Shown piece after piece: positions 2,204 to 64,000 of a DNA stretch of 64,000 bases. Position 1 is the first letter of the stretch. Each line of letters opens with the position of its first letter. A model generated the notes under the pieces. That model saw only the letters and a list, made by a program, of their open reading frames with translations. It was not told where the DNA came from and did no database searches. The stretch is from an uncultured Pelagibacteraceae bacterium (GTDB lineage Bacteria; Pseudomonadota; Alphaproteobacteria; Pelagibacterales; Pelagibacteraceae), in NCBI GenBank assembly GCA_902571015.1, contig CACGAC010000006.1, forward strand, positions 3,941-67,940, given 5' to 3'. A program made the position numbers and the translations under genes.

Positions 2204-2969
2204 TTACACTGAAAAATTTGAAAAAATGAGAATAGCTGGAAAGTTAGCTTCACAAACTTTAGACATGTTAACAGAAAATATTAAAGAAGGTGTTTCAACA
2301 GCTTACATAGATAAGCTTGGCTATGAGTTTATAAGGGATAATGGTGGCCACTCTGCCCCACTTTACTATCGTGGTTTTACTAAATCTTTATGTACATCTC
2401 TTAATCATGTTGTATGTCATGGTGTCCCCTCTGAGGATAGAGTTTTAGTTGAAGGAGACGCCCTTAATGTAGATGTAACTGCTATCATTAATGAACATTA
2501 TGGAGATACAAGTAGAATGTTTTGTATTGGAAAAACCTCGGTAAAATTAAATAATCTAATTGATGCAACTTATCAGTCTATGATGAAAGCAATTAAAATC
2601 TTAAAACCTGGTATTAAGCTTGGAGATATAGGACATGAAATACAATCTTATATTGAAGAGAAAGGATTTTCTGTAGTTAAGGATTTTTGTGGTCATGGGA
2701 TAGGGACATCATTTCATGAACCACCAAACATTTTACATTACGGAACAAAGAATACAGGCATGGAATTAAAACCTGGGATGACATTTACAATAGAACCAAT
2801 GATTAATGCTGGTAAATTTAATGTAAAAATGCTTAATGATGGGTGGACTGCAGTTACAAAAGACAAATCTTTATCTGCACAATTTGAGCATACTGTTGGA
2901 ATTACTGAAAATGGTTATGAAATATTTACAGAATCTGCTAAAGGTTATTCAAAGCCTCCATACTTATAA
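2196..2969 (+). CDS. map: Type I methionine aminopeptidase
   Basis: CTSLNHVVCHGVP, DVT, GDTSRMF, FCGHGIG..FHEPP, FTIEPMIN, SAQFEHT. Confidence 0.97.
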   Translation: MSNYTEKFEKMRIAGKLASQTLDMLTENIKEGVSTAYIDKLGYEFIRDNGGHSAPLYYRGFTKSLCTSLNHVVCHGVPSEDRVLVEGDALNVDVTAIINEHYGDTSRMFCIGKTSVKLNNLIDATYQSMMKAIKILKPGIKLGDIGHEIQSYIEEKGFSVVKDFCGHGIGTSFHEPPNILHYGTKNTGMELKPGMTFTIEPMINAGKFNVKMLNDGWTAVTKDKSLSAQFEHTVGITENGYEIFTESAKGYSKPPYL

Positions 2970-2972
2970 TTA

Positions 2973-4265
2973 ATGATTAAAAGATACTCTCGAAAAGAAT
3001 TAACAGATATTTGGTCTGAGGAAAATAAATACAAAATATGGTTGGATGTTGAAATTGCTGCAGCTCAAGCAATGGAAAAACTTGGTCAAATTCCAAAAGG
3101 TGTCTCGTCAATAGTTAGGAAAAAAGCTAAAATAAATGTAAAAAGAATTCATCAAATTGAAAGTAAAGTTAAACATGATGTAATTGCTTTTTTAACTTCC
3201 ATAACAGAAAAGGCAGGAATTAAAGCTAGATACCTCCATCTTGGCATGACTTCATCTGATGTAGTAGATACAAGTTTTAATATTCAATTAGTTCAATCAG
3301 GAAAAATTATCTTAAAAGACATAGATCAAATTTTAAAAGTATTAAAAAAACAAGCTAGAAAATATAAATTTACTCCTTGCATAGGTCGTAGTCATGGAAT
3401 TCATGCTGAGCCAATAACATTTGGATTAAAATTAGCTTCCTTTTATGAAGAGTTTAAAAGAAATAGAGAAAGATTAGTTTACGCTATAGATCAAATATCA
3501 ACTTGTGCAATTTCTGGAGCTGTTGGAACATTTGCAAATGTAAACCCTAATGTCGAAAAACATGTTGCAAAAAAACTTGGATTAAAAGTTGAACCAATCT
3601 CTACTCAAATAATCCCAAGAGATCGTCATGCATTTTATTTTTCAGTATTAGGAATTATCGCAGGAAGTATAGAAAGAGTGGCTATAGAAATAAGACATTT
3701 ACAAAGATCTGAAGTTTACGAATTACAAGAATATTTTTCTAAAAGTCAAAAGGGTTCATCTGCAATGCCCCATAAAAAAAATCCAATTTTAAGTGAAAAT
3801 TTAACAGGACTAGCTAGAATGGTAAGAAGTTCTGTTGTTCCAGCGCTAGAAAATATTGCACTTTGGCATGAAAGAGATATTTCACATTCAAGCGTAGAGA
3901 GAAATATTGGTCCTGATGCAAATATTACTCTAGACTTTGCACTTGTAAGATTAGCAGGTGTTTTAGATAATATGATTGTTTATCCAAAAAAAATGCTAGA
4001 AAATCTTAATCTTACTAAAGGGCTAATTTTTTCTCAAGAAGTGATGCTAGAACTGACAAAAACTGGTATCACAAGAGAAAAATCCTATAAGTTAGTACAA
4101 GGATATGCAAAAAAATGTTTTGCTGAAAATTTAGATTTGTTTAATGTTATTCAGTCTGACAAGTTAATAATGAGTAAAATTTCAATCAAAAAATTAAAGT
4201 CTATCTTTAATTATTCTAAACACTTTAAAAATGTAAATCTAATATTTAGGCGGGTTTTCAAATAA
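2973..4265 (+). CDS. purB: Adenylosuccinate lyase
   Basis: [28 protein letters not shown]. Confidence 0.97.
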
Positions 4266-5050
4266 TGAAAAAAGGTAAAAAACTTTACGAGGGAAAAGCC
4301 AAGATAATTTATTCAACCTCAGATAAAAATTTAGTAATCCAATACTTTAAAGATGATGCTACAGCATTTAATAATGAAAAAAGAACTACTATTGAGGGTA
4401 AAGGAGTTTTAAATAATAGAATTTCTGAACATATTCTTACAAATTTATCTCAAATTGGTATTGAAAATCATTTAGTCAAACGACTAAATATGAGAGAACA
4501 ATTAATTAAATTTGTAGAAATAATTCCAATTGAATTTGTTATTCGGAATGTTGCGACAGGATCTTTGACTAAAAGACTTGGAATAGAAGACGGAACTGTA
4601 CTAAAAGAACCTTTAATTGAATACTGTTTGAAAGATGACAAACTTGGCGATCCATTAATTTCAGAGGATCATATTTACGCGTTTGATTGGGCAAATAAAA
4701 AAGAAATCGAAAAGATAAAAAAAACTATTTTTAGAATTAATGATTTTATGATTGGGATGTTTAGAGGAGTGGGAATAAAATTAATTGATTTTAAATTAGA
4801 ATTTGGGCGAACTAAAATTGATGGTAGAAAAGAAATAATTTTGGCTGATGAAATAAGCCCTGATACTTGTAGATTGTGGGACTCTGCAACTGACAAAAAA
4901 CTTGATAAAGATAGATTTAGAAAAGATTTAGGAGATTTATTACCTGCGTATACCGAAGTTGCCAAAAGACTTGGAATTCTACATGAGCAATCAAACGTTT
5001 CTGCAGTGAATGTAACTAAACTATCCTCAATTAAAAAGAAGCGAAAATGA
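4265..5050 (+). CDS. purC: SAICAR synthase
   Basis: [37 protein letters not shown]. Confidence 0.97.
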
Positions 5051-22065: not shown

Positions 22066-23082
22066 TTAACTAAAAGCTTCGACCCAAGTCCCTTGTGTAG
22101 ATGCTTTAGAATACTCTGTTGCACGACCCTCAAAGAAGTTCATGTGCTCAACTGCATTTAACATTGTATCTAACCATCCAAGAGGATTTTTTTGTACATC
22201 GTAAATTGGTTCCAAGCCTAGTTGAACTAGTCTTCTATTACCAATAAATCTAATATAGTCTTTTACTTCTTTTGCAGTTAATCCTTCCATTGGACCCATT
22301 TCAAAAGCTAAATCTATAAAGGCATCCTCATGTTCAATAATAGTTCTGCAAGCTTCATATAATTCTTTTTTTAATTTTGGTGTCCAGATTTCTGGATTCT
22401 CTTTGATGAATTCTTTAAAAATTCTAATCATAGAATTGCAGTGAAGAGTTTCATCTCTTACAGACCAAGTAACTATTTGGCCCATTCCTTTCATCTTGTT
22501 GTGTCTTGGGAAATTTAAAAGGATCGCAAAACTTGCAAATAATTGTAGACCCTCAGTGAAAGCACTAAAGACTGCAACAGTTTTAGCAATGTCCTCTTTT
22601 GAATTAACATTAAATCCTTGCATATAATCATATTTGTCTTTCATTTCTTTATACTTCATAAATGCAGAATATTCTGACTCTGGCATTCCAATAGTATCTA
22701 ATAAATGAGAATAAGCAGCGACATGAACTGTTTCCATTGCAGCAAAAGCTGTCATCATCATTAAAACTTCAGTTGGTTTAAAAACAGTTGTGTAATGTCT
22801 TAAATAACAGTTATTAACTTCAACATCAGCTTGAGTAAAAAATCTAAAAATTTGAGTTAAAAGATTTTTTTCAGGTTGTGATAAATTTTTCTGCCAATCT
22901 CTAACATCATCACCAAGTGGTACCTCCTCAGGTAACCAATGAATTCTTTGTTGCGTTAACCAAGCGTCATAACACCAAGGGTATCTAAATGGTTTGTAAA
23001 CTGGATTTTCTACTAAAAGACCCATCTTTTTAGGTTGGATAATTTCTTTTTTTTCTACTTTGATTTTCTCTGCTACTGACAT
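22066..23082 (-). CDS. nrdB: Class Ia ribonucleotide reductase beta subunit
   Basis: FFTQAD, ETVH..AY (radical Tyr), FTEG, RDETLH. ATG 23082 has GAGGAG 8 nt upstream. Confidence 0.96.
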   Translation of the reverse strand: MSVAEKIKVEKKEIIQPKKMGLLVENPVYKPFRYPWCYDAWLTQQRIHWLPEEVPLGDDVRDWQKNLSQPEKNLLTQIFRFFTQADVEVNNCYLRHYTTVFKPTEVLMMMTAFAAMETVHVAAYSHLLDTIGMPESEYSAFMKYKEMKDKYDYMQGFNVNSKEDIAKTVAVFSAFTEGLQLFASFAILLNFPRHNKMKGMGQIVTWSVRDETLHCNSMIRIFKEFIKENPEIWTPKLKKELYEACRTIIEHEDAFIDLAFEMGPMEGLTAKEVKDYIRFIGNRRLVQLGLEPIYDVQKNPLGWLDTMLNAVEHMNFFEGRATEYSKASTQGTWVEAFS

Positions 23083-25013
23083 GATAAACACTCCTCGTAT
23101 TCTGGTTCTTCGTTAGTTTGTTGATTTTTAGATTTATATACATTGGCTGTAATATCAGTTGATTGAGCATTATTGATATTTTCAGCTCTTTGAATTGATT
23201 TTGATCTACAGTAATAAAGGCTTTTCAAACCTTTTTTCCATGCATCAAAATGAATTCTATGTAATTCTTTTTTGTGAACGTCTGCTGGTAAAAACAAATT
23301 GACTGATTGTGCTTGAGAAATAAATGGTGTCCTATCACCACTCAACTCAACAATCCATTTTTGATTTAATTCAAAAGCAGTTTTAAAAACATCTTTTTCT
23401 AAATCAGTTAAAAAATCTAAATGCGAAACTGAACCTTGATTAGTAGTTATTGTTGACCATGTTTCATCATCATTCTTGCCGTGACTTTCCAAAATTTCCT
23501 CAAGATATCTATTTCTTACATTGAAGGATCCTGACAAAGTTTTGTGAGTATAACTGTTAGCTGCAATAGGTTCCACTCCTGGTGATGCGCCTCCGCAGAT
23601 TATTGAAATAGATGCAGTTGGTGCTATTGCGGTCTTATTTGAAAATCTCTCTTTAAAACCATATTCTGCAGCATCTGGACATGCACCTCTTTCTTCAGCT
23701 AAATCTTTTGAGGCTTGGTTTACCTTTTCATGAATATTTTTAAAAATCTTTTTATTCCATGACTTTGCCATAACAGACTCGAGTGGAATTCTTTTTTTCT
23801 GCAAGAAAGAATGGAAACCCATCACTCCTAATCCAACACTTCTTTCTCTCTCAGCAGAGTATTTAGCATCTTTAAATTGCTCAGGGGCTTTGTTAATAAA
23901 ATCAGATAAAACATTATCTAAAAATCTCATTACATCTCCAATCATATCTGGATCATCTTTCCACTCATCATACTTTTCTAAATTTAATGAAGACAAACAA
24001 CAAACAGCTGTTCTATCTCTTCCATCTTTATCGATACCAGTAGGTAAAGTTATTTCACTGCAAAGGTTTGAAGTTTTAACTGTAAGGTTTGCAAGCTTAT
24101 GATGTTGCGGTATTTGTCTATTAACAGTATCGATGTAAATAATGTAAGGTTCGCCTGTTTCAATTCTCGCTGTTAATAATCTAATCCATAAATTTCTTGC
24201 GGATATAGTTTGTTGAATAGTTCCGTCAGCAGGACTCTTTAGCGCCCATTGCTCATCATTTTCTACAGCTCGCATAAATGCATCTGAAACTAAAACACCG
24301 TGGTGTAAATTTAATGCTTTTCTGTTCGGATCACCACCAGTTGGTCTTCTCATTTCCATAAACTCTTCTATTTCAGGATGGTCAATTGGAAGATAACATG
24401 CTGCAGATCCTCTTCTTAATGAACCTTGGCTGATTGCCATAGTTAGTGAGTCCATCACTTTTATAAATGGAATGATCCCAGAAGTTTTTCCAACTTTACC
24501 AATCTTCTCACCTATTGATCTCAAATTTCCCCAATAACTTCCAATACCTCCACCTTTTGCGGCTAACCAAACATTTTCACTCCAAAGATCTAGAATGCCA
24601 CCTAAGCTATCTGATGCTTCATTTAAAAAACATGAAATTGGTAATCCTCTTTTAGTTCCACCATTAGACAAAACAGGTGTAGCTGGCATAAACCAGAGGT
24701 TGCTTATATAATTATAAATTCTTTGTGCATGCAAATTGTCATCTGCATATGTACTAGCTACTCTCGCAAATAAATCTTGAAAAGACTCATTGTGACCAAG
24801 GTATCTGTCTTTTAGAGTTGCCTTACCAAAATCAGTTAGGTTTGCATCTTTTGATCGGTCAATTTTAATTATTATGCCCTTATCATTTTGAAACAGCTCA
24901 GTTTCATTGTTTAGAGAGAATAAATCTGGTCTATTGCTTTTTTGGACTTCTTTAACCTCAGGGCTATATTCAGAGACAGCTTTCTTTAATGCCTGCGATA
25001 GTATTTTATTCAT
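23073..25013 (-). CDS. nrdA: Class Ia ribonucleotide reductase alpha subunit, short form without ATP-cone
   Basis: PATPVLSN, LPISCF, SNLCSEI, TAIAPTASIS, C-terminal CLSC. Confidence 0.96.
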   Translation of the reverse strand: MNKILSQALKKAVSEYSPEVKEVQKSNRPDLFSLNNETELFQNDKGIIIKIDRSKDANLTDFGKATLKDRYLGHNESFQDLFARVASTYADDNLHAQRIYNYISNLWFMPATPVLSNGGTKRGLPISCFLNEASDSLGGILDLWSENVWLAAKGGGIGSYWGNLRSIGEKIGKVGKTSGIIPFIKVMDSLTMAISQGSLRRGSAACYLPIDHPEIEEFMEMRRPTGGDPNRKALNLHHGVLVSDAFMRAVENDEQWALKSPADGTIQQTISARNLWIRLLTARIETGEPYIIYIDTVNRQIPQHHKLANLTVKTSNLCSEITLPTGIDKDGRDRTAVCCLSSLNLEKYDEWKDDPDMIGDVMRFLDNVLSDFINKAPEQFKDAKYSAERERSVGLGVMGFHSFLQKKRIPLESVMAKSWNKKIFKNIHEKVNQASKDLAEERGACPDAAEYGFKERFSNKTAIAPTASISIICGGASPGVEPIAANSYTHKTLSGSFNVRNRYLEEILESHGKNDDETWSTITTNQGSVSHLDFLTDLEKDVFKTAFELNQKWIVELSGDRTPFISQAQSVNLFLPADVHKKELHRIHFDAWKKGLKSLYYCRSKSIQRAENINNAQSTDITANVYKSKNQQTNEEPEYEECLSCQ

Positions 25014-25047
25014 TTTTTGTTAATATATCTTGTTAATATAGCGAAAA

Positions 25048-25094
25048 CAACTATATGTTGTGTGCGCTTGGTGTTAATATACTAAATATTATGT
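25048..25094 (-). promoter_or_regulatory. Tandem NrdR boxes upstream of nrdA
   Basis: Minus strand acacaacatatagttg (25063-25048) and acataatatttagtat (25094-25079) resemble acaCwAtATaTwGtgt. They are offset by 31 bp, the usual NrdR tandem spacing. Confidence 0.8.
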
Positions 25095-54831: not shown

Positions 54832-55041
54832 TTAGCTAAAAACTATAAGCCCAAATAAAATTAAACCCGTCGAGGCTGCAGCAGAAAAATAAAACTTTTT
54901 TCTAATCTCTTGTTTCTTGTCAGATTTTACTCTGTTTAAAAGAACATTTATATCTGTACCTCTAGAAGTAGTTTGTGGAGTGTGAGAAACTGTATATTTT
55001 GAAGTAAGTTTTTGTTTAAGAGTGTCAGTTAGATTTTTCAT
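54832..55041 (-). CDS. Small hypothetical protein with C-terminal TM helix (DINVL family, copy 2)
   Basis: 69 aa from ATG 55041; aligns with 55083..55313. Confidence 0.75.
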   Translation of the reverse strand: MKNLTDTLKQKLTSKYTVSHTPQTTSRGTDINVLLNRVKSDKKQEIRKKFYFSAAASTGLILFGLIVFS

Positions 55042-55082
55042 TTGTGTAATTAACCATCCTTTGGATTTATTAGCAAATAAAA

Positions 55083-55313
55083 TTATAAAGAGAGAAATAT
55101 TCCAATTGATCCTAATAGAAGAACACAAAATGAAAAAATAAAAATATTTTTCCTAAACTCTTTGCCTTGCTCAGCATCTAATTTTGATTTTAAAACATTT
55201 ATATCAACTCTACCGGAGCTAATTTTATTAGGATTTAAAGGCTTTTCAGCTACATTAATATCATTTGGGGTCTCGATATTATTAGTATTCTCTGTAAAGC
55301 CTTTAGATGTCAT
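55083..55313 (-). CDS. Small hypothetical protein with C-terminal TM helix (DINVL family, copy 1)
   Basis: 76 aa; DINVL..E.RK followed by a 21-aa hydrophobic tail. Confidence 0.75.
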   Translation of the reverse strand: MTSKGFTENTNNIETPNDINVAEKPLNPNKISSGRVDINVLKSKLDAEQGKEFRKNIFIFSFCVLLLGSIGIFLSL

Positions 55314-55366
55314 AAATCTATTAAACCATAATATTTAAAAAAAACAATTTTCTTGGAAGTTCAAAC

Positions 55367-55404
55367 TGGGTCAATAATGAATTGACACATGTCCAATTTG
55401 GGTC
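55367..55404. promoter_or_regulatory. Candidate operator region between divergent genes
   Basis: Inverted repeat GTCAAT-N5-ATTGAC (55370-86) containing TTGACA; TGGGTC repeated at 55367 and 55399. Confidence 0.4.
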
Positions 55405-55426
55405 TTAACTGCCACTTTTATAATTT

Positions 55427-56404
55427 ATGAGCATTCAAGAAGTAGATTTTTCCAAAACTCTTTCAGACGAGCAGGTCTATGAGTCCATTATGTCTCACTA
55501 TTCTATTCTTAGTAAAGATTGGATATCACATCAATGGAATTGGATGAACGGTGTTTATAGGCCATTTAATGATCACTATAAATATTTGATAATAATTTCT
55601 TTAATTGAAAAAACTCTTCAATTTTACACCCAGATGAATATTCAATACTCTTATGATGAATACTACTCGAAATCATATCTTCAAATTGATAAGTTTAGTA
55701 TTACTGAACTTTGTGAAAAATTAGATTTACCTAAAGAAACAATTAGAAGAAAAGTTATAGAACTTGAAAATGAAGGTGTAATAACTCGTAATAAAAAAAA
55801 AATTGTAATTGATAGAAAAGCATTCGACTTTATTAAGCCAGCACAACAAATAAAATTTTCAGCAAAATATATATATTTAGTTTCTAAAGCTTTAAATAAA
55901 GATAAGGTTTATTCTAAAAAACCTGATCAAAAAATTATTGAAAATATTATAAAAAAAAGATTTTCATTATCATGGAGTTGGTTTTACAGAATGCAAATAC
56001 CATCAATTATTGGTTACCATAAATTTTTTAAAGATTTAACTACGTTTCATATTTGGGGAACAATTTGCATGAACCAAGTCTTAAACGTAACCGATCAATT
56101 AAATTCTTATAAAAATAAACCCTCATTAGATTACTTTGCTACTAATAATATTGTTATAGAAAATCTTGGAGCAGAAACTGGTATAAGTGCAATGTCAATT
56201 TCTGATATGACAAAAATCCCCAGAGCAACAATTATTAGAAAATGTAAATATTTAATTGGGGAAAACTTAATTAAGCTAAACCAAAAAAAACAATATTTGC
56301 TAACCAGTATGAATTTTAGAAAAATTTTACCTTATCAAACACAAATTTTTAAATACAAGGCAAAGTTTATTCGTAAAATTTTAAATCTTCTTGTAATTTC
56401 TTAA
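55427..56404 (+). CDS. Hypothetical protein with two tandem winged-HTH-like repeats (putative regulator)
   Basis: SITELCEKLDLPKETIRRKVIEL (aa 91-113) and SAMSISDMTKIPRATIIRKCKYL (aa 254-276). Confidence 0.7.
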   Translation: MSIQEVDFSKTLSDEQVYESIMSHYSILSKDWISHQWNWMNGVYRPFNDHYKYLIIISLIEKTLQFYTQMNIQYSYDEYYSKSYLQIDKFSITELCEKLDLPKETIRRKVIELENEGVITRNKKKIVIDRKAFDFIKPAQQIKFSAKYIYLVSKALNKDKVYSKKPDQKIIENIIKKRFSLSWSWFYRMQIPSIIGYHKFFKDLTTFHIWGTICMNQVLNVTDQLNSYKNKPSLDYFATNNIVIENLGAETGISAMSISDMTKIPRATIIRKCKYLIGENLIKLNQKKQYLLTSMNFRKILPYQTQIFKYKAKFIRKILNLLVIS

Positions 56405-56444
56405 ATCTTCAATAAATTCTTCTCGAATATTACACAGAGGGGTC

Positions 56445-57296
56445 ATGGGTATAGTAACAACAATAGCGCCGTTTGCGCTAGCTCTTATAATGTTAGGGCT
56501 TGGGGCGTCATTAACAGTAAAAGATTTCACAAGAGTATTTCAGCATCCAAAAGAATTTTTTGTTGGTTTAATTTGTCAATTAGTTGTTCTTCCAATTATT
56601 GGTTATCTGTTAATAATTATTTTAAAAACTCCAATAGAGCTAGCTTTAGGGGTAATGTTGATTGCAGCTGCACCTGGTGGAGTAACATCAAATGTGCTTA
56701 CTAAATTTGCAGATGGAGATGTTGCACTTTCTATATCTCTTACAGCTTTTACTAGTTTAATAAGTATTGTTTCAGTTCCCTATATAGTTTTTTTATCAAT
56801 TGATTTATTTAATATTACTTATGTTGAAAAAGAAGTTTCGATGCTTGGTATATCCTTAAAGATGTTTTTTGTAGTTACTGTGCCTGTGATAATTGGAATG
56901 ATTATTAGAAAATTTTTTAGTGATTTTATAGAAAATAATATCAAAATTATTGAGAAAGCATCCATAGGATTATTTTCAATTGTTTTCATTGCTATCTACA
57001 TTCAAGAATGGGATAGTATTATAATGTTCCTAACGACAGCAGGAACTATTGCTTTGGTTCTTAATATTTCCATGATGGTTATAGGCTTTTACGTAGCTAA
57101 ACTTTTTGCATCAGGTGTTGCTCAACAAAGATGTATATCTATTGAATGTGGATTACAAAATGGAACGTTAGCTGTTTTTGTAGGAACGCAGTTGTTTGGG
57201 CAAAACATGACTTACATGGTTCCAACAGCAGCTTATGCTTTGATTATGATGATGACTTCTGTTCTTTTTGTGTTTTTCTTAAGAAATAGAACTTAA
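56445..57296 (+). CDS. Bile acid:sodium symporter (BASS) family transporter
   Basis: IMLGLG, QLVVLP, APGGVTSN, GDVALS, ECGLQNG. Confidence 0.9.
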   Translation: MGIVTTIAPFALALIMLGLGASLTVKDFTRVFQHPKEFFVGLICQLVVLPIIGYLLIIILKTPIELALGVMLIAAAPGGVTSNVLTKFADGDVALSISLTAFTSLISIVSVPYIVFLSIDLFNITYVEKEVSMLGISLKMFFVVTVPVIIGMIIRKFFSDFIENNIKIIEKASIGLFSIVFIAIYIQEWDSIIMFLTTAGTIALVLNISMMVIGFYVAKLFASGVAQQRCISIECGLQNGTLAVFVGTQLFGQNMTYMVPTAAYALIMMMTSVLFVFFLRNRT

Positions 57297-59737
57297 TTAT
57301 TTTTAAAATTAGTTTGTTTTAAAGGTTTGATAATTATTTCTATTGGATACTTTTTTTTCTCTACTTCAATGAATAGATCTTTTTTGTTAAGTTCGTCATT
57401 TGAAATATCGTTATTGATATAACCAAATGTTAAATTTTTCCTAAAATTAAAAGAATAATTGCCAGATGTTGATCTACCTATAATTTTATTTTCTAAATAA
57501 ATAGGCTCATCATGAAGCAATAATGGCTCACCTGGTTTGCTATCTTTTAAAGTAAACATTGCAAATCTACGTTTAATTTTTTCCTTTTTAATTTTTTCTA
57601 AAGCTTTTTTGCCAATAAATTCATGCTCCTTTTTAGAGCTTATTGTGAAAGATAAACCTGCTTGGTATTGATTTTCTTCTGGTGAAATATCATGTCCCCA
57701 ATGTAAAAATCCACTCTCCATTCGCATAATATCCATAGCGTGCATACCACAATTCGAAAGGTTAAAATCTTTTCCTTTATTAACCAATAATTCATAAATT
57801 TTTTTAGCATCTTCAGATTTAACATATAATTCATAACCTAATTCACCAACATATGACAATCTTTGAGTCCAAATTTTAATACCTTCAATTGAAATATATT
57901 TTGCTGTACCAAATCTAAATTCATCATTTTCGAAATTGTCTTTTGAAATTGATTTCATTAAAGCTCTACTCTTTGGTCCAAACACACCAAATACACAAAA
58001 ATCATCTGTAACGTCTTTTAACTCTAAATCTTTTGCGAGGTATTTTTTTATGTGAAATTTATCTCTCTCCCTTGTGGCTGCAGAGCTTATTATTCTAAAA
58101 TGATCTTTTTCGATACAAACAACTGTTAAATCTGTTTCAATACCACCGTCGGGATTTAACATATGTGTATAAACACATTTGCCAACTTCATTTTTAATAT
58201 TTGCCGTACAAATTTTTTGCAATTCCGTATAAGCTTTATCAGATTTAATCTCAAATTTAGAAAAAGGAGTTAAATCAAATAATCCAACATTTTTGATGGT
58301 ATTATTCGTTTCATATTCTGCTGAAGGGTACCAGTTTTGGTAATTATAACTGTATTCGTATTCCGTTTTTTCTCCATCTAGAGCAAACCACATAGGTCTT
58401 TCATATCCACCTGATGCACCAAAACAAGCGCCAAAGCTTTTTAATTCATCATGATATGGAAGAGTTTTTATATTCCTTGAGGTTTTATGTTGTTTAAAAG
58501 GCCAATGCATTCCATATAAATCTCCTAAAGATTCCGTAATCCTTTTTTTAATAAAACTTAGATCAGAATGAAATTTTTGAAATCTTTTGATGTCATAACA
58601 AAAAATATCTTCATTAATATGTCCATTGATTAACCATTCAGCGGTAACTTTACCTACACCGCCACCACTTCCAATTCCAATACTATTTAAACCACAACAT
58701 ACAAAAAAGTTTTTTATTTCAGGCACTTCTCCTAGTAATGTATTTGTATCTGGAGTAAATGACTCTGGGCCTGAAAAAAATTTTCTAATTCCTGCTGTTT
58801 CTAAAACTGGAAATCTTTTTATTGCAGTGGCTAAATAAGGTTCAAAATGTTCAAAATTTTCTTGAAATTCTCCAAACGAAAAATCCTCTGGAACTTTATT
58901 AGTTTTATCCCAGGCTGGTATAGACTGAGACTCAAATATACCAACTAATATTTTTCCAGCGTCTTCTTTAATATAAGTCCTATTATCAAAATCTCTTATC
59001 ACTGGTAAAGTTTTAGAAAGATTTTCAATTGGCTCTGTAATAATATAAAAATGTTCTGCTGGGTAAAGAGGAATACTTACTCCAGCTTTTTCTCCAATTT
59101 GGCGTGACCACATTCCTGATGCTAAAACTATATACTCACAATCAATTTTTTGACCATTTACTTTTACACCTGAAATTTTTCTATTTTTAGTTATGATCTC
59201 ATCAACGGGAGATTTTTCAAAAATCTTTGCCCCTTCCATTCTTGCTGCTTTTGCTAACATATGTGTTACTCCCGATGGATCTGCAGCACCATCTCCTGGC
59301 ATTAAAATTCCTCCTAAAACTTCATCAGTATTTACAATTGGATAATCTTTTTTAATTTGTTCTTTATCTAAAATTCTAACATCAACATCAAAAAGCTGTG
59401 CGGTTGTCGCTTGTCTTTGAAGCTCTTGCCATCTACCTTTATTTTCAGCAATTGAAAGTGCACCGTTCAATCTTAATCCAGCTGAATGATCAACTTTCTT
59501 TTCAAGTTCTTTATATAGGTCTAAAGTATATTTTCTTATTTTAGTAATTGCTGCAGATGGACCTAGTTGACTTACTAATCCAGCTGCATGCCAAGTCGTA
59601 CCTGATGTTAACTGATCTCTTTCTAAAAGGATTGTATCTTTCCAACCAAATTTAGCCAAATGATAAGCAACTGAACAACCAACTACTCCACCTCCGATAA
59701 CAACAACTTTGGTGCTACTTGGAAGTTTTTTTTCCAT
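57293..59737 (-). CDS. FAD-dependent GcvT-family oxidoreductase (dimethylglycine/sarcosine dehydrogenase-like)
   Basis: VIGGGVVG, SGTTWHAAG (covalent FAD His), GPESFTPD, RLSYVGELGYE, RMESGF. Confidence 0.9.
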   Translation of the reverse strand: MEKKLPSSTKVVVIGGGVVGCSVAYHLAKFGWKDTILLERDQLTSGTTWHAAGLVSQLGPSAAITKIRKYTLDLYKELEKKVDHSAGLRLNGALSIAENKGRWQELQRQATTAQLFDVDVRILDKEQIKKDYPIVNTDEVLGGILMPGDGAADPSGVTHMLAKAARMEGAKIFEKSPVDEIITKNRKISGVKVNGQKIDCEYIVLASGMWSRQIGEKAGVSIPLYPAEHFYIITEPIENLSKTLPVIRDFDNRTYIKEDAGKILVGIFESQSIPAWDKTNKVPEDFSFGEFQENFEHFEPYLATAIKRFPVLETAGIRKFFSGPESFTPDTNTLLGEVPEIKNFFVCCGLNSIGIGSGGGVGKVTAEWLINGHINEDIFCYDIKRFQKFHSDLSFIKKRITESLGDLYGMHWPFKQHKTSRNIKTLPYHDELKSFGACFGASGGYERPMWFALDGEKTEYEYSYNYQNWYPSAEYETNNTIKNVGLFDLTPFSKFEIKSDKAYTELQKICTANIKNEVGKCVYTHMLNPDGGIETDLTVVCIEKDHFRIISSAATRERDKFHIKKYLAKDLELKDVTDDFCVFGVFGPKSRALMKSISKDNFENDEFRFGTAKYISIEGIKIWTQRLSYVGELGYELYVKSEDAKKIYELLVNKGKDFNLSNCGMHAMDIMRMESGFLHWGHDISPEENQYQAGLSFTISSKKEHEFIGKKALEKIKKEKIKRRFAMFTLKDSKPGEPLLLHDEPIYLENKIIGRSTSGNYSFNFRKNLTFGYINNDISNDELNKKDLFIEVEKKKYPIEIIIKPLKQTNFKNN

Positions 59738-59741
59738 TTAA

Positions 59742-60860
59742 TTAATTTTTGATTGCATCTCCTGGGTTAACATATTCATGTCCAAATACATCTGCAACAG
59801 CTTTATAAGTCACATGACCCTTATGAACATTTAATCCTGCTAAAAAGTTTTTATCTTCACTAAGAGCTTTTTGATAACCTCTATTGGCTAATTTAACTAA
59901 ATAAGGAAGTGTTGCTTTGTTTAATGCGATAGTTGATGTTCTAGGAACCCCTCCTGGCATGTTAGCTACACAATAATGAACAACGTTATCAACTATAAAA
60001 GTTGGATCATTAAAAGTTGTCGGTTTACTTGTTTCTACACAACCACCTTGATCAATTGCAACGTCAACAATAACAGAGCCTCTTTTCATCAATTTTAACA
60101 TATCTTTAGTGACTAATTTAGGCGCCTCTGCTCCGGGGATTAAAACTCCTCCTACTATTAAGTCTGCTTCAGCTACTAACTTTTTTAAATCTATCTTATC
60201 ACTTTGTTCTGGGATAATTTTATCTCCAAACATTTCAACTAATTGTTTTAGTCTTGCTTCTGATTTATCTACAACATGAACTTTTGCCTTCATACCAGTT
60301 GCTATAGTTGCAGCATTTTCTCCCACTACACCTCCACCTAAAATTAAAACATTCGCTGGTTCACCACCAGGAGCTCCACCCAATAATACTCCTCTGCCTT
60401 TTTGGTTTTTTTCTAAACAATGTGCTCCAGCTTGAACTGACATACGTCCTGCTACAGCACTCATAGGTGCAAGTAAAGGAAGCCTTCCATTATCATCAGT
60501 AATGGTTTCATAAGCTATATTAATACTTTTTGATTTTACCAAACCCTCTGTCAATTCTTTTGCAGCAGCTAGATGTAAATAGGTGTATACGATTTGATTT
60601 TCTTTAATCATTTCAACCTCAACTTTTTGAGGTTCTTTAACTTTAACAATTATTTCAGCGTCATTAAAAATATCAGTGGCTTTTTCAATAATTTTAGCTC
60701 CAGCATTTTTGTACTGATCATTGTCGAAACCTGCTTCAAAGCCTCCATTGTTTTCTACTAATACTTCATGTCCCTCAGAGACAAGAGTTTTTACACTATC
60801 TGGTGTTAGGCCTATTCTATTTTCTTGAGGTTTAATTTCTTTAGGTACGCCAATTCTCAT
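59742..60860 (-). CDS. ald: Alanine dehydrogenase
   Basis: IGVPKEIK.QENR, VKVKEP, LPLLAPMSAVAGR, VDVAIDQGG, VANMPG. Confidence 0.97.
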   Translation of the reverse strand: MRIGVPKEIKPQENRIGLTPDSVKTLVSEGHEVLVENNGGFEAGFDNDQYKNAGAKIIEKATDIFNDAEIIVKVKEPQKVEVEMIKENQIVYTYLHLAAAKELTEGLVKSKSINIAYETITDDNGRLPLLAPMSAVAGRMSVQAGAHCLEKNQKGRGVLLGGAPGGEPANVLILGGGVVGENAATIATGMKAKVHVVDKSEARLKQLVEMFGDKIIPEQSDKIDLKKLVAEADLIVGGVLIPGAEAPKLVTKDMLKLMKRGSVIVDVAIDQGGCVETSKPTTFNDPTFIVDNVVHYCVANMPGGVPRTSTIALNKATLPYLVKLANRGYQKALSEDKNFLAGLNVHKGHVTYKAVADVFGHEYVNPGDAIKN

Positions 60861-60869
60861 TAACGAAAT

Positions 60870-62216
60870 TTAATTCTTTTTACTTTTTGCGTAATTAGTT
60901 ATTCCGGTTCTTAATTTTTCAATAATTTCATCAATATGTTTTTTTTCACAAATAAACATCGGTGCTATAATTAAACAATCACCTGTGGCTTTGAAATTTA
61001 CTCCAGCATCATAACAGTGTTTAAAAGTAGCTAAGCCTGCTTTACCAGGTCTACCATCAGTTTTAATATCTATACCACCCATCATTCCATAGCCTCTAAT
61101 GTTATCGACTACATCAATATCTTTTAGTGAAAATAGTCCTTCTTGGAAGTAAGGAGCAAGTTCTTTTGCTCTATTGAAAATATCCTCTTTTTCAAAAATA
61201 TCTTGAACAGCTAATGCTGCTGCAACAGAAACTGGTATTCCTGAATAAGTGTAACCATGAAATAATTCTATCGCACCTTTTGGAGAATTATCCATAACTG
61301 CATCATAAATTTCTTCTTTACAAGCAACCACACCAAATGGAACTATTCCATTAGTTGTTGCTTTTGCCATAGTCATTATGTCAGGTGTCACGCCAAACTC
61401 TTGAGCTCCAAAAGCTGAACCGGTTCTTCCCCATCCAGTAATAACTTCATCGAAAATCAAAAGTATTTTATGTTTGTCACAAAGTTCTCTTAATCTTTGT
61501 AAATATCCAACTGGTGGAACTAAAGTTCCTGTCGAACCAGCAATCGGCTCAACAATACAAGCTGCAATATTTTCTGAACCAAAATTAGTACAAATTCTTT
61601 CTAAATCATTTGCAATTTCAGCACCTGTTTCAGGTTGACCTGATATAAATTTATGTTCATCTAAATGTGTATGTCTCATATGAACAACACCTGGCATCAA
61701 CACACTTGCATAAGCTTTCACATTATTAATCATACCACCTACTGATGTTGCTCCAATATTCATCCCATGATATGCACGTTCTCTTCCAACAAATCTAAAT
61801 CTTTGTCCTTCACCTCTTGCTTTATGGTAGGCAATACTAATCTTGATCGCTGTTTCAACTGCAGTAGATCCACAAATTGTATAAAAAATTTTATTTAAAT
61901 TTCCTGGAGTATGTTTTGAAATTCTAGTCGCTAATTCAAAAGATCCACCAAATCCTTGTTGGAAGGGTTGACAATAATCTAAAGTTTGTAATTGATTTGT
62001 TATTGCTTCAATAATTTCTTTTCTACCGTGTCCTAAAGGATTACAAAATAATCCTGAGCTTGCATCAATTTGAGTTTTACCTTGGTGATTTTTTAAATAT
62101 ACACCTTTTGCCTCCACTATAAGTTTTGGATTTTCTTTAAAATCTTTATTAGATGTAAATGGCATCCAATGTTCATTTAAAGAATTAGGTACTGATGTTC
62201 TTTTTTCTGAGCTCAT
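60870..62216 (-). CDS. Class III PLP aminotransferase, omega-amino acid:pyruvate type
   Basis: WMPFT, AYHG, VEPIAGS, FDEVITGWGRTG, TMAK, HGYTYSG. Confidence 0.88.
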   Translation of the reverse strand: MSSEKRTSVPNSLNEHWMPFTSNKDFKENPKLIVEAKGVYLKNHQGKTQIDASSGLFCNPLGHGRKEIIEAITNQLQTLDYCQPFQQGFGGSFELATRISKHTPGNLNKIFYTICGSTAVETAIKISIAYHKARGEGQRFRFVGRERAYHGMNIGATSVGGMINNVKAYASVLMPGVVHMRHTHLDEHKFISGQPETGAEIANDLERICTNFGSENIAACIVEPIAGSTGTLVPPVGYLQRLRELCDKHKILLIFDEVITGWGRTGSAFGAQEFGVTPDIMTMAKATTNGIVPFGVVACKEEIYDAVMDNSPKGAIELFHGYTYSGIPVSVAAALAVQDIFEKEDIFNRAKELAPYFQEGLFSLKDIDVVDNIRGYGMMGGIDIKTDGRPGKAGLATFKHCYDAGVNFKATGDCLIIAPMFICEKKHIDEIIEKLRTGITNYAKSKKN

Positions 62217-62289
62217 ATTAAAATTTCATAAATGATTAATTAATGAATCCTTAGACTAATTAAGTCCAATAAACCACCAAAATAATTGT

Positions 62290-62306
62290 CACAACTTAAA
62301 GTTGTG
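62290..62306. promoter_or_regulatory. Perfect 17-bp palindrome in the divergent promoter (candidate operator)
   Basis: CACAACTT-A-AAGTTGTG. Confidence 0.55.
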
Positions 62307-62392
62307 TAACTAGAATGAGCATTTTTTTGTTTTACATATAGGCCAATTTAATCTTAAAATTGAAACTTATAAATAAACAAGGAAGAGGAAAA

Positions 62393-63334
62393 ATGAAAAA
62401 AATAATTAGTTTTATTCTTGGATGTTTTGTAGCTCTTAATCTTTCAATTTCAGTTGCTAATTCAGCAGCTAATGAAGTTAGAGTTGCATACTTCTTAGAG
62501 TGGCCAAGCCCGAATCTAGAGGATATGATGAAGAAAAACTTCGCTAAAGCTTTAGGGGTTCCTGTTAAGTGGACAAACTTTACTAATGGTGGTGCAATGA
62601 CTGATGCTATGTTAGCGGGAGATATTGATATCTCTTACTCTCAAGGTTTAGTTCCATTCATTAATGCTGTTAAATCAAAAGCTCCTATCAAACTTGTAGA
62701 TATTGCTATGGAATACGGAATGGGTGGTACAACATGTGTAACATCTAATGCATCAGGTATAACAAAAGCTAACGCTACAGAACTTGAGGGTAAAAAAGTT
62801 GCTGTTCCACTAGGTACAATGGCTGAATACGTTTTTGATGAAAGTATGAAAGTTGTTGGTGCGGACAGAAAAAAAATGGATATCATTCAAATGGACCCTG
62901 AAGAAGGCGCTGCTGCTTTAGTAAGTGGTGATGTTGTAATGGCATGTTTATTTGGTGGTAACTCAATTAAAGCTGCAACTGCAGTTGGATCTAGATTACT
63001 TACAGTTCAAGAAGCTAGAGACGCAGGTATCTTAGGTATTGATATCACTTCAGTAACTACTAAGTTTATGAAGGAAAATCCAGGTATGCTAAGAACTTTT
63101 ATTGAAGTAACTCATGAGGCTAATGCAAGATATAGAGCTGGTAAAAGCGATATGAACTCAATGTCAAAAGCTTCTGAAATGAAAGTTGCTGATATGAAAG
63201 AAACTTTAAGTGGCTTTAAATTTCTAACACCAGAGGAAACTAAACAATCTATGGAAAGTGGAAATCTTGATGCATTCTTAAAAGGAATGGGAACACCAAG
63301 AGGAAACGTAGATACTAGTTTCTTACCTTTATAA
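62393..63334 (+). CDS. tauA: Taurine/sulfonate-type ABC substrate-binding protein (TauA-like)
   Basis: Signal peptide, VAYFLEWP, W..F..G..M..AM..GDIDI, GKKVAVPLGT. ATG 62393 follows AAGGAAGAGGA. Confidence 0.75.
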   Translation: MKKIISFILGCFVALNLSISVANSAANEVRVAYFLEWPSPNLEDMMKKNFAKALGVPVKWTNFTNGGAMTDAMLAGDIDISYSQGLVPFINAVKSKAPIKLVDIAMEYGMGGTTCVTSNASGITKANATELEGKKVAVPLGTMAEYVFDESMKVVGADRKKMDIIQMDPEEGAAALVSGDVVMACLFGGNSIKAATAVGSRLLTVQEARDAGILGIDITSVTTKFMKENPGMLRTFIEVTHEANARYRAGKSDMNSMSKASEMKVADMKETLSGFKFLTPEETKQSMESGNLDAFLKGMGTPRGNVDTSFLPL

Positions 63335-63355
63335 TCTAAGGGTAATTTAAATTTT

Positions 63356-63394
63356 AATAGGCGCCAATTGTAATAAATTGGTGCCTATTTTTTT
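63356..63394 (+). terminator. Intercistronic hairpin with U-tract after the binding-protein gene
   Basis: AATAGGCGCCAATT / AATTGGTGCCTATT (one G-U pair), 6-nt loop, then a T-run. Confidence 0.75.
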
Positions 63395-63422
63395 ATTAAA
63401 AATTCAAATATAAAGTCTCTTT

Positions 63423-64000
63423 ATGAGTGATTTAATTTCACAAAATCTAAACATGATTTTTAAAACTCCTAAAGGAGAAACTGTTCACGCTTTAAAAGAT
63501 TTAAATTTTACTCTCAAAAAAGGAGAGCTTCTTACTGTTCTTGGGCCGTCTGGTTGCGGAAAGACTACATTGCTTAACATTACTGCAGGATTTATTAGAC
63601 CAACTTCAGGAAGTATTACTCTTAATAATAAAGAAATAGATGGACCAGGAGTTGAAAGGGGTATGGTTTTTCAACAAGGTGCTTTATTTGAATGGCTAAC
63701 AGTTGCTGAAAATGTCAACTTTGGATTAAGAATGAAAAAAGAAGATCCAATTGAAACTCAAAAAAAAGTTGATGAATGGTTAGAGATTGTTGGATTAAAA
63801 GGTTTTGGAAACACTCCAACTTATCAATTATCTGGAGGAATGCAGCAGAGAGTTGCCCTTGCAAGATGTCTAATCAACAACCCAGATTTGATTTTAATGG
63901 ATGAACCATTAGGAGCCCTTGATGCTCTTACAAGAGAAAAAATGCAGTCCCTAGTTTTAAAAATTTGGAAAGAAACTGGTAAAACAATTATTCTTATTAC
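63423..64000 (+). CDS. tauB: Partial ABC ATPase, TauB/SsuB/NrtD-like (runs off the window end)
   Basis: My translation: MSDLISQNLNMIFKTPKGETVHALKDLNF...GPSGCGKTT...VFQ...LSGGMQQRVALAR...LMDEPLGALD. Confidence 0.8.
   Translation, partial: MSDLISQNLNMIFKTPKGETVHALKDLNFTLKKGELLTVLGPSGCGKTTLLNITAGFIRPTSGSITLNNKEIDGPGVERGMVFQQGALFEWLTVAENVNFGLRMKKEDPIETQKKVDEWLEIVGLKGFGNTPTYQLSGGMQQRVALARCLINNPDLILMDEPLGALDALTREKMQSLVLKIWKETGKTIILI

What the first reader, a model, noticed from the sequence alone, without database searches (positions are those of the whole stretch)
57293..64000. Nitrogen-harvesting amine locus: TauAB-like uptake, omega-amine:pyruvate transaminase, Ald and a GcvT-family dehydrogenase
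Seen: aminotransferase-ald-dehydrogenase are co-oriented with gaps of 9 and 4 nt, divergent from the ABC genes, with a BASS symporter convergent. Knowledge: amine:pyruvate transaminase plus Ald is a catalytic pyruvate/alanine cycle that yields NH4+ and NADH, as in taurine, hypotaurine and beta-alanine catabolism. The transaminase looks like the BauA/omega type rather than canonical Tpa, and no xsc/pta is in the window. Inference: the substrate range may include hypotaurine or beta-alanine, and the dehydrogenase may demethylate an N-methylated analogue (for example N-methyltaurine) before transamination. That would be an undescribed route.
Basis: partly seen in the sequence, partly recalled or inferred. 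Interest (0 to 1): 0.55.

Follow-up and report, generated by a model that had tools for sequence, protein, structure and literature searches.

The report
SAR11 taurine operon with appended demethylase
This is the taurine uptake and deamination locus of the ocean bacterium Pelagibacter (SAR11), mostly a known pathway, but a distinct folate-dependent N-demethylase is attached to the operon in many SAR11 lineages and probably feeds methylated relatives of taurine or beta-alanine into it, which nobody has yet tested.

Summary
**Observation: confirmed.** The layout is tauA-tauB(-tauC), divergent from aminotransferase, 9 nt, ald, 4 nt, then an 814-aa DMGDH-family gene. A BASS gene lies convergent to the last gene.

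**The known part:**
- The genome is Pelagibacter, 96% identical to strain RS39 at this protein.
- Xsc and a Pta-family gene lie on other contigs, so the Tpa-Ald-Xsc-Pta taurine route is complete.

**The interesting part, the third gene:**
- It keeps the covalent-FAD His and the His/Tyr dyad.
- It is not the genome's DMGDH. That role belongs to a 33%-identical paralog in an etfBA/ETF-QO operon.
- Its orthologs (52-96% identity) follow ald in about 20 of 25 SAR11 loci.
- Among 41 high-quality genomes they occur in 13, all within the 17 that hold TauA, Ald and Xsc.
- Rhizobiaceae plasmids pair a homolog (43% identity) with an AptA-type aminotransferase.

**Reading:** most likely (about 0.5) it demethylates an N-methylated omega-amine such as N-methyltaurine before transamination. 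The substrate is unproven, and a sarcosine-type role remains possible.

**Seen before:** the scan noted the same arrangement in another genome (e1-5225535), without follow-up.

The parts
62393..63334 (+). TauA-type periplasmic binding protein of the ABC importer (313 aa; a TTG at 62360 would give 324 aa)
   Evidence: NMT1/OpuAC/SsuA-like domains. It scores below the E. coli-type TauA equivalog cut-off (85 bits against 304). Its 90% cluster holds proteins that JGI names 'taurine transport system substrate-binding protein' and Ca. P. ubique entries. The HTCC1062 counterpart SAR11_0807 was shown to bind taurine (PMC11485210). The ribosome-binding site and ATG were read.
63356..63389 (+). 14-bp hairpin plus U-run between tauA and tauB (intra-operon attenuator or terminator)
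   Evidence: Found by the terminator scan. Fold energy -21.7 kcal/mol, z = -4.2, and 0 of 200 shuffles fold as well.
63423..64000 (+). TauB-type ABC ATPase, 5' part. The gene ends 220 nt beyond the window and is followed by a long tauC.
   Evidence: ABC_tran domain. The nearest NCBIfam model is the taurine ATPase PRK11248, at 272 bits for the whole protein, below its cut-off of 357. TauC is 641 aa in relatives, with a single C-terminal BPD_transp_1 domain.
62217..62392 (.). Shared divergent control region. It holds a palindrome CACAACTTAAAGTTGTG (62290-62306), a TAGACTA box and a TTTTTGTTTTAC box.
   Evidence: Sequence read. All three elements recur in the same order in the tauA/AT spacers of other SAR11 genera. 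The palindrome is a unique exact match in the window. The only other exact intergenic copy in the genome lies upstream of nrdA.
60870..62216 (-). AptA/BauA-type omega-amino acid:pyruvate aminotransferase, the inferred taurine:pyruvate aminotransferase of this genome
   Evidence: Aminotran_3 domain; NF052567 AptA equivalog 566 bits against a cut-off of 500. Best solved relatives are 4b98, 4uhm and 3a8u. JGI name is beta-alanine--pyruvate transaminase. The only other class-III aminotransferase in the genome is ArgD.
59742..60860 (-). NAD-dependent alanine dehydrogenase, which regenerates pyruvate and releases NH4+
   Evidence: TIGR00518 equivalog 483 bits against a cut-off of 392. It starts 9 nt after the aminotransferase stop. 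It occurs in the same 17 high-quality genomes as TauA and Xsc.
57293..59737 (-). DMGDH-family flavoprotein (FAD domain + folate-binding GcvT domain), a distinct paralog; the inferred THF-linked N-demethylase of an N-methylated omega-amine
   Evidence: Domains. His50 (TWHAAGL), His229 and Tyr254 align with DMGO His48, His225 and Tyr259. It is 33% identical to the in-genome DMGDH. It scores 465 bits against mammalian DMGDH, where that paralog scores 650-660. It forms a separate clade. It starts 4 nt after the ald stop. Synteny is; phyletic pattern.
56445..57296 (+). BASS-family Na+ symporter, a convergent neighbour; its membership in the system is uncertain
   Evidence: SBF domain. It stays next to the DMGDH-like gene in genus g1, even in G058 where AT-ald lie elsewhere. 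It was not seen in the other genera.

Best explanation
**Shown or well supported.** The locus is the SAR11 taurine-type uptake and deamination module.
- TauABC imports taurine.
- An AptA/BauA-type omega-aminotransferase passes the amino group to pyruvate and gives sulfoacetaldehyde.
- Ald turns the alanine back into pyruvate and yields NH4+ and NADH.
- Xsc and a Pta-family enzyme, encoded on other contigs, convert sulfoacetaldehyde to acetyl phosphate plus sulfite and then to acetyl-CoA.

**Inferred.**
- The third gene of the operon is a catalytically intact, THF-dependent N-methyl-amine dehydrogenase. It belongs to a subfamily distinct from the genome's real DMGDH.
- It removes the methyl group (as 5,10-methylene-THF) from an N-methylated omega-amino compound.
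- The candidates are N-methyltaurine first, then N-methyl-beta-alanine or 4-methylaminobutyrate.
- The primary amine produced becomes a substrate of the neighbouring aminotransferase.
- It is therefore an optional front end that widens the substrate range of the module and adds a C1 unit to the yield.
For: **The taurine module:**
- Family assignments.
- Xsc at 966 bits against a cut-off of 676. It lies beside a UxaA-family dehydratase pair read here as SuyAB-like, and a YeiH-family putative exporter.
- A PTA_PTB gene.
- Only one candidate aminotransferase in the genome.
- Taurine binding by SAR11_0807 and taurine uptake and growth in HTCC1062 (PMC11485210, PMC3090418).
- TauA, Ald and Xsc occur in the same 17 of 41 high-quality SAR11-family genomes.

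**Coupling of the demethylase to the module:**
- A 4-nt gap to ald, with no terminator-like site between the two genes.
- Orthologs at 52-96% identity follow ald in about 20 of 25 loci from at least five genera.
- Orthologs occur in 13 high-quality genomes, all inside the 17 with the taurine module and none of the other 24. The canonical DMGDH also occurs in genus g2, where the module was not found.
- The canonical DMGDH is a different gene, in a DMGDH-etfB-etfA-ETF:QO operon.
- Catalytic residues are conserved.
- On A. vitis and R. leguminosarum plasmids, a 43%-identical member of the sister clade sits in an operon: PotD/F-type ABC importer, etfBA, DMGDH-family gene 1, the homolog, then an AptA-type aminotransferase (714 bits, 46% identical to the SAR11 enzyme).
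- JGI's automatic name for the orthologs is 4-methylaminobutanoate oxidase, the one family member known to act on an N-methyl omega-amino acid.
Against: - No result identifies the substrate.
- The gene is dispensable. G057, G031, G079 and G028 keep TauA (broken by stop codons in G079), AT, Ald and Xsc without it. G057's TauA is 100% identical to that of G040, which has the gene, so the importer shows no adaptation to it.
- The linkage is broken in several genomes:
  - G058, where it sits beside BASS and the wHTH gene.
  - G073, where an opposite-strand epimerase gene is inserted.
  - Three g4 genomes, where the ortholog sits in an EamA-DMGDHL-HIBADH-like-ALDH-IMPase-like operon beside betaine-type genes.
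- Outside SAR11 the sister clade sits in mixed methylamine contexts: MttB, hydantoinase, IMPase + ABC, and other DMGDH paralogs.
- The phyletic nesting is largely at clade level, and related genomes are not independent.
- In HTCC1062, Ald protein did not rise under nitrogen limitation although TauA did (PMC3870248).
Confidence: 0.5

Rival explanations
1. The DMGDH-like protein is a sarcosine-type (or other N-methylglycine-type) dehydrogenase of betaine, creatine or one-carbon metabolism. It lies after ald only because SAR11 packs genes tightly, and it has no metabolic link to the aminotransferase. The rest of the locus is the ordinary taurine module.
For: - Sarcosine and DMG are the classical substrates of this architecture, and the catalytic residues are the same.
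- Sun et al. predicted both a 'sardh' and a 'dmgdh' in HTCC1062 (PMC3160333).
- In three g4 genomes the ortholog lies in a betaine-type island with TmpA/BBOX-like dioxygenases, an aldehyde dehydrogenase and a ProV-like ATPase.
- On Roseobacter plasmids a homolog follows hydantoinase A/B genes, a possible sarcosine-generating context.
- The gene is unlinked from ald in G058 and absent from some genomes with the taurine module.
Against: - The genome already has other sarcosine-oxidising candidates: two SoxA-like and two SoxB-like genes and a 367-aa DAO-family gene.
- A pure betaine-pathway enzyme would be expected to follow the canonical DMGDH. That gene occurs in genus g2 without this one, whereas this gene was found only in genomes with TauA, Ald and Xsc.
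- Linkage to ald is kept down to 52% identity.
- The Rhizobiaceae operons end in an AptA-type aminotransferase. A glycine-producing pathway does not need one.
Confidence: 0.3
2. The enzyme demethylates N-methyl-L-alanine (or another N-methyl alpha-amino acid) to L-alanine. The adjacent Ald then deaminates it, so the functional pair is ald plus the demethylase rather than the aminotransferase plus the demethylase.
For: - The gene directly follows ald at 4 nt.
- Where the linkage is kept, it is always ald that is the neighbour.
Against: - No importer or source for N-methylalanine is evident.
- The Rhizobiaceae parallel pairs the homolog with the aminotransferase and has no Ald.
- To my knowledge N-methylalanine is not a noted marine solute.
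Confidence: 0.07
3. The module's main physiological substrates are beta-alanine, hypotaurine or other omega-amino acids rather than taurine, and taurine is a side substrate.
For: - The aminotransferase is AptA/BauA-type and is named beta-alanine--pyruvate transaminase.
- Orthologs at 66% identity or more exist in SAR11 genomes where TauA, Ald and Xsc were not found, such as g2, g8 and g17.
- TauA scores far below the E. coli-type TauA equivalog cut-off.
Against: - The HTCC1062 TauA counterpart binds taurine with high affinity, and cells take up and grow on taurine.
- TauA and Ald co-occur exactly with Xsc, which is specific for sulfoacetaldehyde.
Confidence: 0.1

Closest known systems
Taurine dissimilation through TauABC, Tpa, Ald, Xsc and Pta (Cook/Denger pathway; Ruegeria pomeroyi, Paracoccus, Rhodococcus, Bilophila)
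   Same: - ABC uptake divergent from an aminotransferase-ald pair.
- Pyruvate/alanine cycling by Ald.
- Xsc well over its equivalog cut-off, and a Pta-family gene in the same genome.
- Taurine binding and use shown for the SAR11 type strain.
   Different: - The aminotransferase is of the AptA/BauA (beta-alanine or omega-amino acid:pyruvate) subfamily and is not annotated as Tpa.
- xsc and pta are on other contigs.
- No TauR-type regulator was seen.
- TauC is a 641-aa protein with a long N-terminal extension.
- A DMGDH-family gene is appended to the operon.
Dimethylglycine dehydrogenase / dimethylglycine oxidase (mammalian DMGDH 5L46 and 4PAA; Arthrobacter DMGO 1PJ5)
   Same: - Same four-domain architecture.
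- Covalent-FAD histidine in a TWHAAGL motif.
- His/Tyr catalytic dyad.
- Folate-binding GcvT domain.
   Different: - Only 33% identical to the genome's own DMGDH ortholog, which scores 650-660 bits against mammalian DMGDH compared with 465 for this protein.
- Separate, fully supported clade.
- Not next to etfBA.
- Linked to ald and the aminotransferase instead.
4-methylaminobutanoate oxidase MABO of Arthrobacter nicotinovorans pAO1 (from my own knowledge: a DMGDH-family enzyme that demethylates an N-methyl omega-amino acid to GABA)
   Same: - The proposed logic is the same: demethylate an N-methyl omega-amino compound to the primary amine for further catabolism.
- JGI's automatic annotation gives this name to the SAR11 orthologs.
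   Different: - No direct sequence comparison was possible, because pAO1 was not retrievable.
- MABO works as an oxidase in nicotine catabolism of an actinobacterium.
- The SAR11 substrate is unknown.
Rhizobiaceae plasmid operon: PotD/F-type ABC importer, etfBA, two DMGDH-family genes, AptA-type aminotransferase, DUF3422 (A. vitis CP146243, R. leguminosarum CP050082). I found no description of its function.
   Same: It pairs a member of the sister clade of the SAR11 enzyme (43% identical) with an AptA-type aminotransferase (46% identical to the SAR11 one) and an amine-type importer.
   Different: - It has two demethylases and its own ETF.
- It has no Ald.
- The importer type differs.
- It is plasmid-borne.

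Membership tests
Tpa-Ald-Xsc-Pta taurine pathway | Taurine-specific uptake system next to the catabolic genes | tested here: inconclusive
   The TauA/SsuA-like binding protein and TauB-like ATPase are adjacent. Both fall below the NCBIfam taurine equivalog cut-offs (85 against 304, and 272 against 357). Taurine binding is shown only for the HTCC1062 counterpart (PMC11485210), and I could not measure its identity to this protein directly.
Tpa-Ald-Xsc-Pta taurine pathway | Pyruvate-dependent class-III aminotransferase acting on taurine | not testable with these tools
   The class-III fold and the AptA equivalog are met. It is the only non-ArgD class-III aminotransferase in the genome. Activity on taurine is inferred, and no characterised Tpa sequence was available for comparison.
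Tpa-Ald-Xsc-Pta taurine pathway | Alanine dehydrogenase partner | tested here: met
   TIGR00518 483 bits against a cut-off of 392, starting 9 nt after the aminotransferase.
Tpa-Ald-Xsc-Pta taurine pathway | Sulfoacetaldehyde acetyltransferase Xsc in the genome | tested here: met
   TIGR03457 965.6 bits against a cut-off of 676.4, at C4:2756-4483. It co-occurs with TauA and Ald in the same 17 high-quality genomes.
Tpa-Ald-Xsc-Pta taurine pathway | Phosphate acetyltransferase for acetyl phosphate | tested here: met
   PF01515 250 bits at C1:262437-263390. This is a family-level match only. No acetate kinase was found.
Dimethylglycine dehydrogenase (EC 1.5.8.4) | DAO + FAO_M + GCV_T + GCV_T_C architecture with the covalent-FAD His and catalytic His/Tyr | tested here: met
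Dimethylglycine dehydrogenase (EC 1.5.8.4) | Orthology to characterised DMGDH (closest in-genome relative of mammalian DMGDH) | tested here: not met
   The C4 paralog scores 650-660 bits against 4P9S and 5L46, while this protein scores 465. The two are 33% identical and fall in separate clades. JGI names the other one DMGDH.
Dimethylglycine dehydrogenase (EC 1.5.8.4) | Association with the ETF / ETF-QO electron acceptors | tested here: not met
   etfB, etfA and ETF-QO follow the C4 paralog, not this gene. The enzyme may still use that ETF in trans.
AptA/BauA omega-amino acid:pyruvate aminotransferases | Score over the NCBIfam AptA equivalog cut-off and closest solved relatives of that type | tested here: met
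   NF052567 566 bits against a cut-off of 500. 4b98, 4uhm and 3a8u are the top hits, at E about 1e-110.
4-methylaminobutanoate oxidase (MABO) | Closer to characterised MABO than to DMGDH or SARDH | not testable with these tools
   There is only JGI's automatic label. pAO1 records were not found.

The most novel reading that the evidence does not exclude
The SAR11 enzyme and its sister clade define a 'demethylate, then transaminate' module for N-methylated omega-amino compounds in Alphaproteobacteria. In SAR11 it would be a THF-dependent N-methyltaurine (or N-methyl-beta-alanine) demethylase that yields taurine and methylene-THF. That reaction differs from the known N-methyltaurine dehydrogenase route, which releases methylamine. 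It would give the ocean's most abundant heterotroph access to methylated sulfonate or amino-acid osmolytes.
Probability: 0.35. Interest if true: 0.65.

Novelty: new variant of a known kind. Interest (0 to 1): 0.45.

Why it matters
SAR11 accounts for a large share of taurine turnover in the sea. TauA is among its most highly expressed proteins.

Showing that Xsc, a Pta-family gene and the sole candidate aminotransferase are all present settles how this genome handles taurine.

The appended demethylase is a concrete, cheap-to-test lead. A purified-enzyme assay with five or six N-methyl compounds would show whether SAR11 uses methylated taurine or beta-alanine derivatives. It would also assign a function to one of the several unassigned DMGDH-family paralogs that SAR11 keeps despite its tiny genome.

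The Rhizobiaceae plasmid operons offer a genetically tractable second system for the same question.

Tried and rejected
- **Regulon from the palindrome.** The only other exact intergenic copy in the genome lies upstream of nrdA and looks like an NrdR box, so it defines no taurine regulon.
- **Xsc next to the DMGDH-like gene** (lead from note e1-3947522). It was not found in any of the loci I held.
- **Direct comparison with MABO.** Two guessed pAO1 accessions were not in the plasmid collection.
- **Substrate-pocket reading.** The DMGO structure paper was not held, and the human DMGDH paper names only the FAD histidine and the dyad. No specificity residues could be mapped.
- **Promoter scan.** The number of promoter-like sites did not exceed the shuffled expectation (30 against 33.9), so it gives no evidence for or against an internal promoter.
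- **Rfam scan of 55000-64000.** No hits at E up to 0.1.
- **Literature.** Seven searches found no paper on N-methyltaurine or related demethylation in SAR11. None discussed the DMGDH-like gene that follows ald.
- **Context of the closest non-SAR11 relative** (G288, 59% identity). ECH_2 hydrolase, the enzyme, then an AEC transporter; this is uninformative.
- **Mapping onto HTCC1062 tags.** I could not tell which HTCC1062 locus tag (SAR11_1221 'sardh', SAR11_1253 'dmgdh', or another) is the ortholog of this gene.

Full report
**What is there.** The window lies on contig C6 of a 1.12-Mb, 29% G+C genome.
- Public names of near-identical proteins place it in Candidatus Pelagibacter, next to strain RS39. 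That strain is handle G023 and is 96% identical at the 814-aa protein.
- On the minus strand lie a class-III aminotransferase (60870-62216), alanine dehydrogenase (59742-60860) and an 814-aa DAO/FAO_M/GCV_T/GCV_T_C protein (57293-59737).
- The gaps between them are 9 nt and 4 nt.
- On the plus strand lie a TauA/SsuA-like binding protein, a strong hairpin (z = -4.2) and a TauB-like ATPase.
- Beyond the window lies a long TauC, 641 aa in relatives.
- A BASS symporter converges on the 814-aa gene with a 4-nt overlap.

**The known part.**
It is on contig C4, at 966 bits against a cut-off of 676. It lies beside a UxaA-family dehydratase pair that I read as SuyAB-like, and a YeiH-family putative exporter.
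- A PTA_PTB gene is on C1.
- The genome holds only two class-III aminotransferases. The other is ArgD, so this enzyme is the only candidate for taurine transamination.
- It is of the AptA/BauA type:
  - It passes the NCBIfam AptA equivalog.
  - Its best solved relatives are beta-alanine:pyruvate and omega-amino-acid:pyruvate transaminases.
  - JGI calls it beta-alanine--pyruvate transaminase.
- In HTCC1062 the counterpart of TauA (SAR11_0807) binds taurine. Cells take up labelled taurine, and that paper cites earlier work showing that HTCC1062 uses taurine for growth. TauA rises under nitrogen limitation, while Ald (SAR11_0809) does not (PMC11485210, PMC3090418, PMC3870248).
- I compared 81 SAR11-family genomes, 41 of them of high quality:
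  - TauA, Ald and Xsc occur in exactly the same 17 high-quality genomes.
  - A homolog of the aminotransferase is in all 41. It is at least 66% identical in 28 and 42-44% identical in 13.
  - One of the 28, G068, is flagged as unpublished. Only that tally rests on it.
- This is therefore the Tpa-Ald-Xsc-Pta type pathway, with an AptA-type enzyme in the Tpa role and the later steps encoded elsewhere.

**The third gene is not the DMGDH.**
- It keeps the covalent-FAD histidine (His50, in TWHAAGL) and the His/Tyr dyad of dimethylglycine oxidase, so it should be active.
- The genome's DMGDH ortholog is another gene, C4:54321-56753:
  - It heads a DMGDH-etfB-etfA-ETF:QO operon.
  - It scores 650-660 bits against mammalian DMGDH, where the protein here scores 465.
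  - It is 33% identical to the protein here.
  - JGI names it dimethylglycine dehydrogenase, while it names orthologs of the protein here 4-methylaminobutanoate oxidase.
- In a 51-sequence tree (short search, SH-aLRT support):
  - The SAR11 proteins plus one small-genome relative (G288) form a clade with 100% support.
  - That clade is sister to a large alphaproteobacterial group.
  - Both are well separated from the canonical DMGDH, from two further SAR11 paralog types, and from a second Rhizobiaceae type.

**Is it tied to the taurine module?** Four observations say yes.
1. Orthologs at 52-96% identity lie directly after ald in about 20 of 25 loci. These are spread over genera g1, g4, g5, g9 and g13 and beyond. 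In most of these loci the aminotransferase, or its 3' end within the fetched flank, lies next to ald. TauABC lies divergent wherever a larger region was fetched.
2. Among high-quality genomes the ortholog is in 13, all within the 17 that have TauA, Ald and Xsc, and in none of the other 24. The canonical DMGDH is also present in genus g2, where the module was not found.
3. The spacer between tauA and the aminotransferase carries three sequence elements conserved across genera. The two divergent operons therefore probably share their control region.
4. On A. vitis and R. leguminosarum plasmids, a 43%-identical member of the sister clade sits in an operon. Its order is: PotD/F-type ABC importer, etfBA, a DMGDH-family gene of another type, the homolog, then an aminotransferase.
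   - That aminotransferase passes the same AptA equivalog (714 bits) and is 46% identical to the SAR11 one.
   - The same two subfamilies are thus paired in two distant lineages. This is what a 'demethylate, then transaminate' route for a methylated amine would predict.

**What speaks against it.**
- The gene is optional. In genus g5, G057 has a TauA 100% identical and an aminotransferase 97% identical to those of G040, and conserved flanks, but lacks the gene at the exact spot where G040 and G004 carry it.
- G031, G079 and G028 also lack it.
- Because the g5 copies are deeply divergent, ancestral presence with later losses is the simplest history.
- The linkage is broken in several genomes:
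  - In G058 the gene stays beside BASS and the wHTH gene.
  - In G073 an opposite-strand epimerase gene is inserted.
  - In three g4 genomes the ortholog sits in an EamA-DMGDHL-HIBADH-like-ALDH-IMPase-like operon. That operon lies next to two TmpA/butyrobetaine-dioxygenase-like genes and a ProV-like ATPase.
- Outside SAR11 the neighbours of the sister clade are mixed:
  - Among 28 genome loci: other DMGDH paralogs, MttB, aldehyde dehydrogenase and FTHFS.
  - On Roseobacter plasmids: hydantoinase A/B.
  - On the P. denitrificans plasmid: IMPase plus an ABC importer.
- Class-III aminotransferase-like ORFs lie next to 3 of the 28 genome loci.
- Related genomes are not independent, so the phyletic nesting is suggestive only.
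- Nothing here identifies the substrate.

**Verdict.**
The locus is mostly a known pathway in a well-studied organism. Its aminotransferase subtype differs from the textbook one.
- The appended demethylase is a real, conserved and undescribed feature.
- I put about 0.5 on functional coupling to the aminotransferase/Ald module through an N-methylated omega-amine, with N-methyltaurine the leading candidate.
- I put about 0.3 on an unrelated sarcosine-type role.
- The remainder goes to other readings.
- Seven literature searches found no description of such a route in SAR11.
- An earlier first-stage note reports the same arrangement in another genome, without follow-up (e1-5225535).

Noticed in passing
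window 62217-62392, and the tauA/AT spacers of L076-L091: The divergent spacer carries three elements conserved across SAR11 genera. They are a TAGACTA box near the aminotransferase start, a palindrome ACAAC(C)-N5-GTTGT, and TTTTTGTTTTAC just upstream of tauA. This looks like a shared operator and promoter for an unidentified regulator. No TauR-type gene was seen nearby.
   Followed up: partly
window 25046-25062: AACAACTATATGTTGTG lies upstream of the ribonucleotide reductase alpha gene (23073-25013, minus strand). It looks like an NrdR-box-type palindrome, and it is the only other exact ACAAC-N5-GTTGT intergenic site in the genome.
   Followed up: partly
window 63356-63389: A 14-bp hairpin with a U-run lies between tauA and tauB (z = -4.2). 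It probably sets a high ratio of binding protein to membrane components.
   Followed up: yes
L001:3362-4615 (beyond the window); L090:14943-16868: TauC is 641 aa in relatives and has one BPD_transp_1 domain at residues 465-628. About 450 N-terminal residues have no Pfam match, which is far longer than usual for a TauC.
   Followed up: partly
L015 (G000:C4:1-12000): xsc (2705-4489, minus strand) is flanked by a split UxaA-family dehydratase pair (94 aa + 389 aa), read here as SuyAB-like, and by a YeiH-family putative sulfate or sulfite exporter. This is a second sulfonate hub, away from the tau locus.
   Followed up: partly
L078 (G021:C4), L079 (G064:C2), L088 (G071:C1): In three genus-g4 genomes the ortholog sits in an EamA-DMGDHL-HIBADH-like-ALDH-IMPase-like operon. 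That operon lies beside two TmpA/gamma-butyrobetaine-dioxygenase-like genes, a ProV-like ATPase and another DMGDH paralog. It is an unassigned methylated-amine island, and an IMPase-family gene also lies near the P. denitrificans homolog (L126).
   Followed up: partly
L128 (A. vitis CP146243) and L129 (R. leguminosarum CP050082): A conserved plasmid operon: SBP_bac_8 ABC importer, etfB, etfA, two DMGDH-family genes of different clades, an AptA-type aminotransferase, and (in L129) DUF3422. I found no functional annotation for it.
   Followed up: partly
G079:C5:10802-11734: The tauA match in this genome carries five in-frame stops (1 TGA, 1 TAG, 3 TAA), while AT, Ald and Xsc are intact. The importer gene may be decaying.
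   Followed up: no
L087:10227-11228 (G073) and L080:10967-11395 (G003): Small insertions sit between ald and the DMGDH-like gene. In G073 it is an opposite-strand GalE-like epimerase gene. In several g4/g9 genomes it is a same-strand 142-aa SET-domain gene.
   Followed up: no
window 56445-57296: The BASS symporter stays beside the DMGDH-like gene in genus g1, even where AT-ald are elsewhere (G058). BASS-family members include plastid pyruvate and glycolate carriers, so a pyruvate or organic-acid role near a pyruvate-dependent module is conceivable. This was not tested.
   Followed up: no
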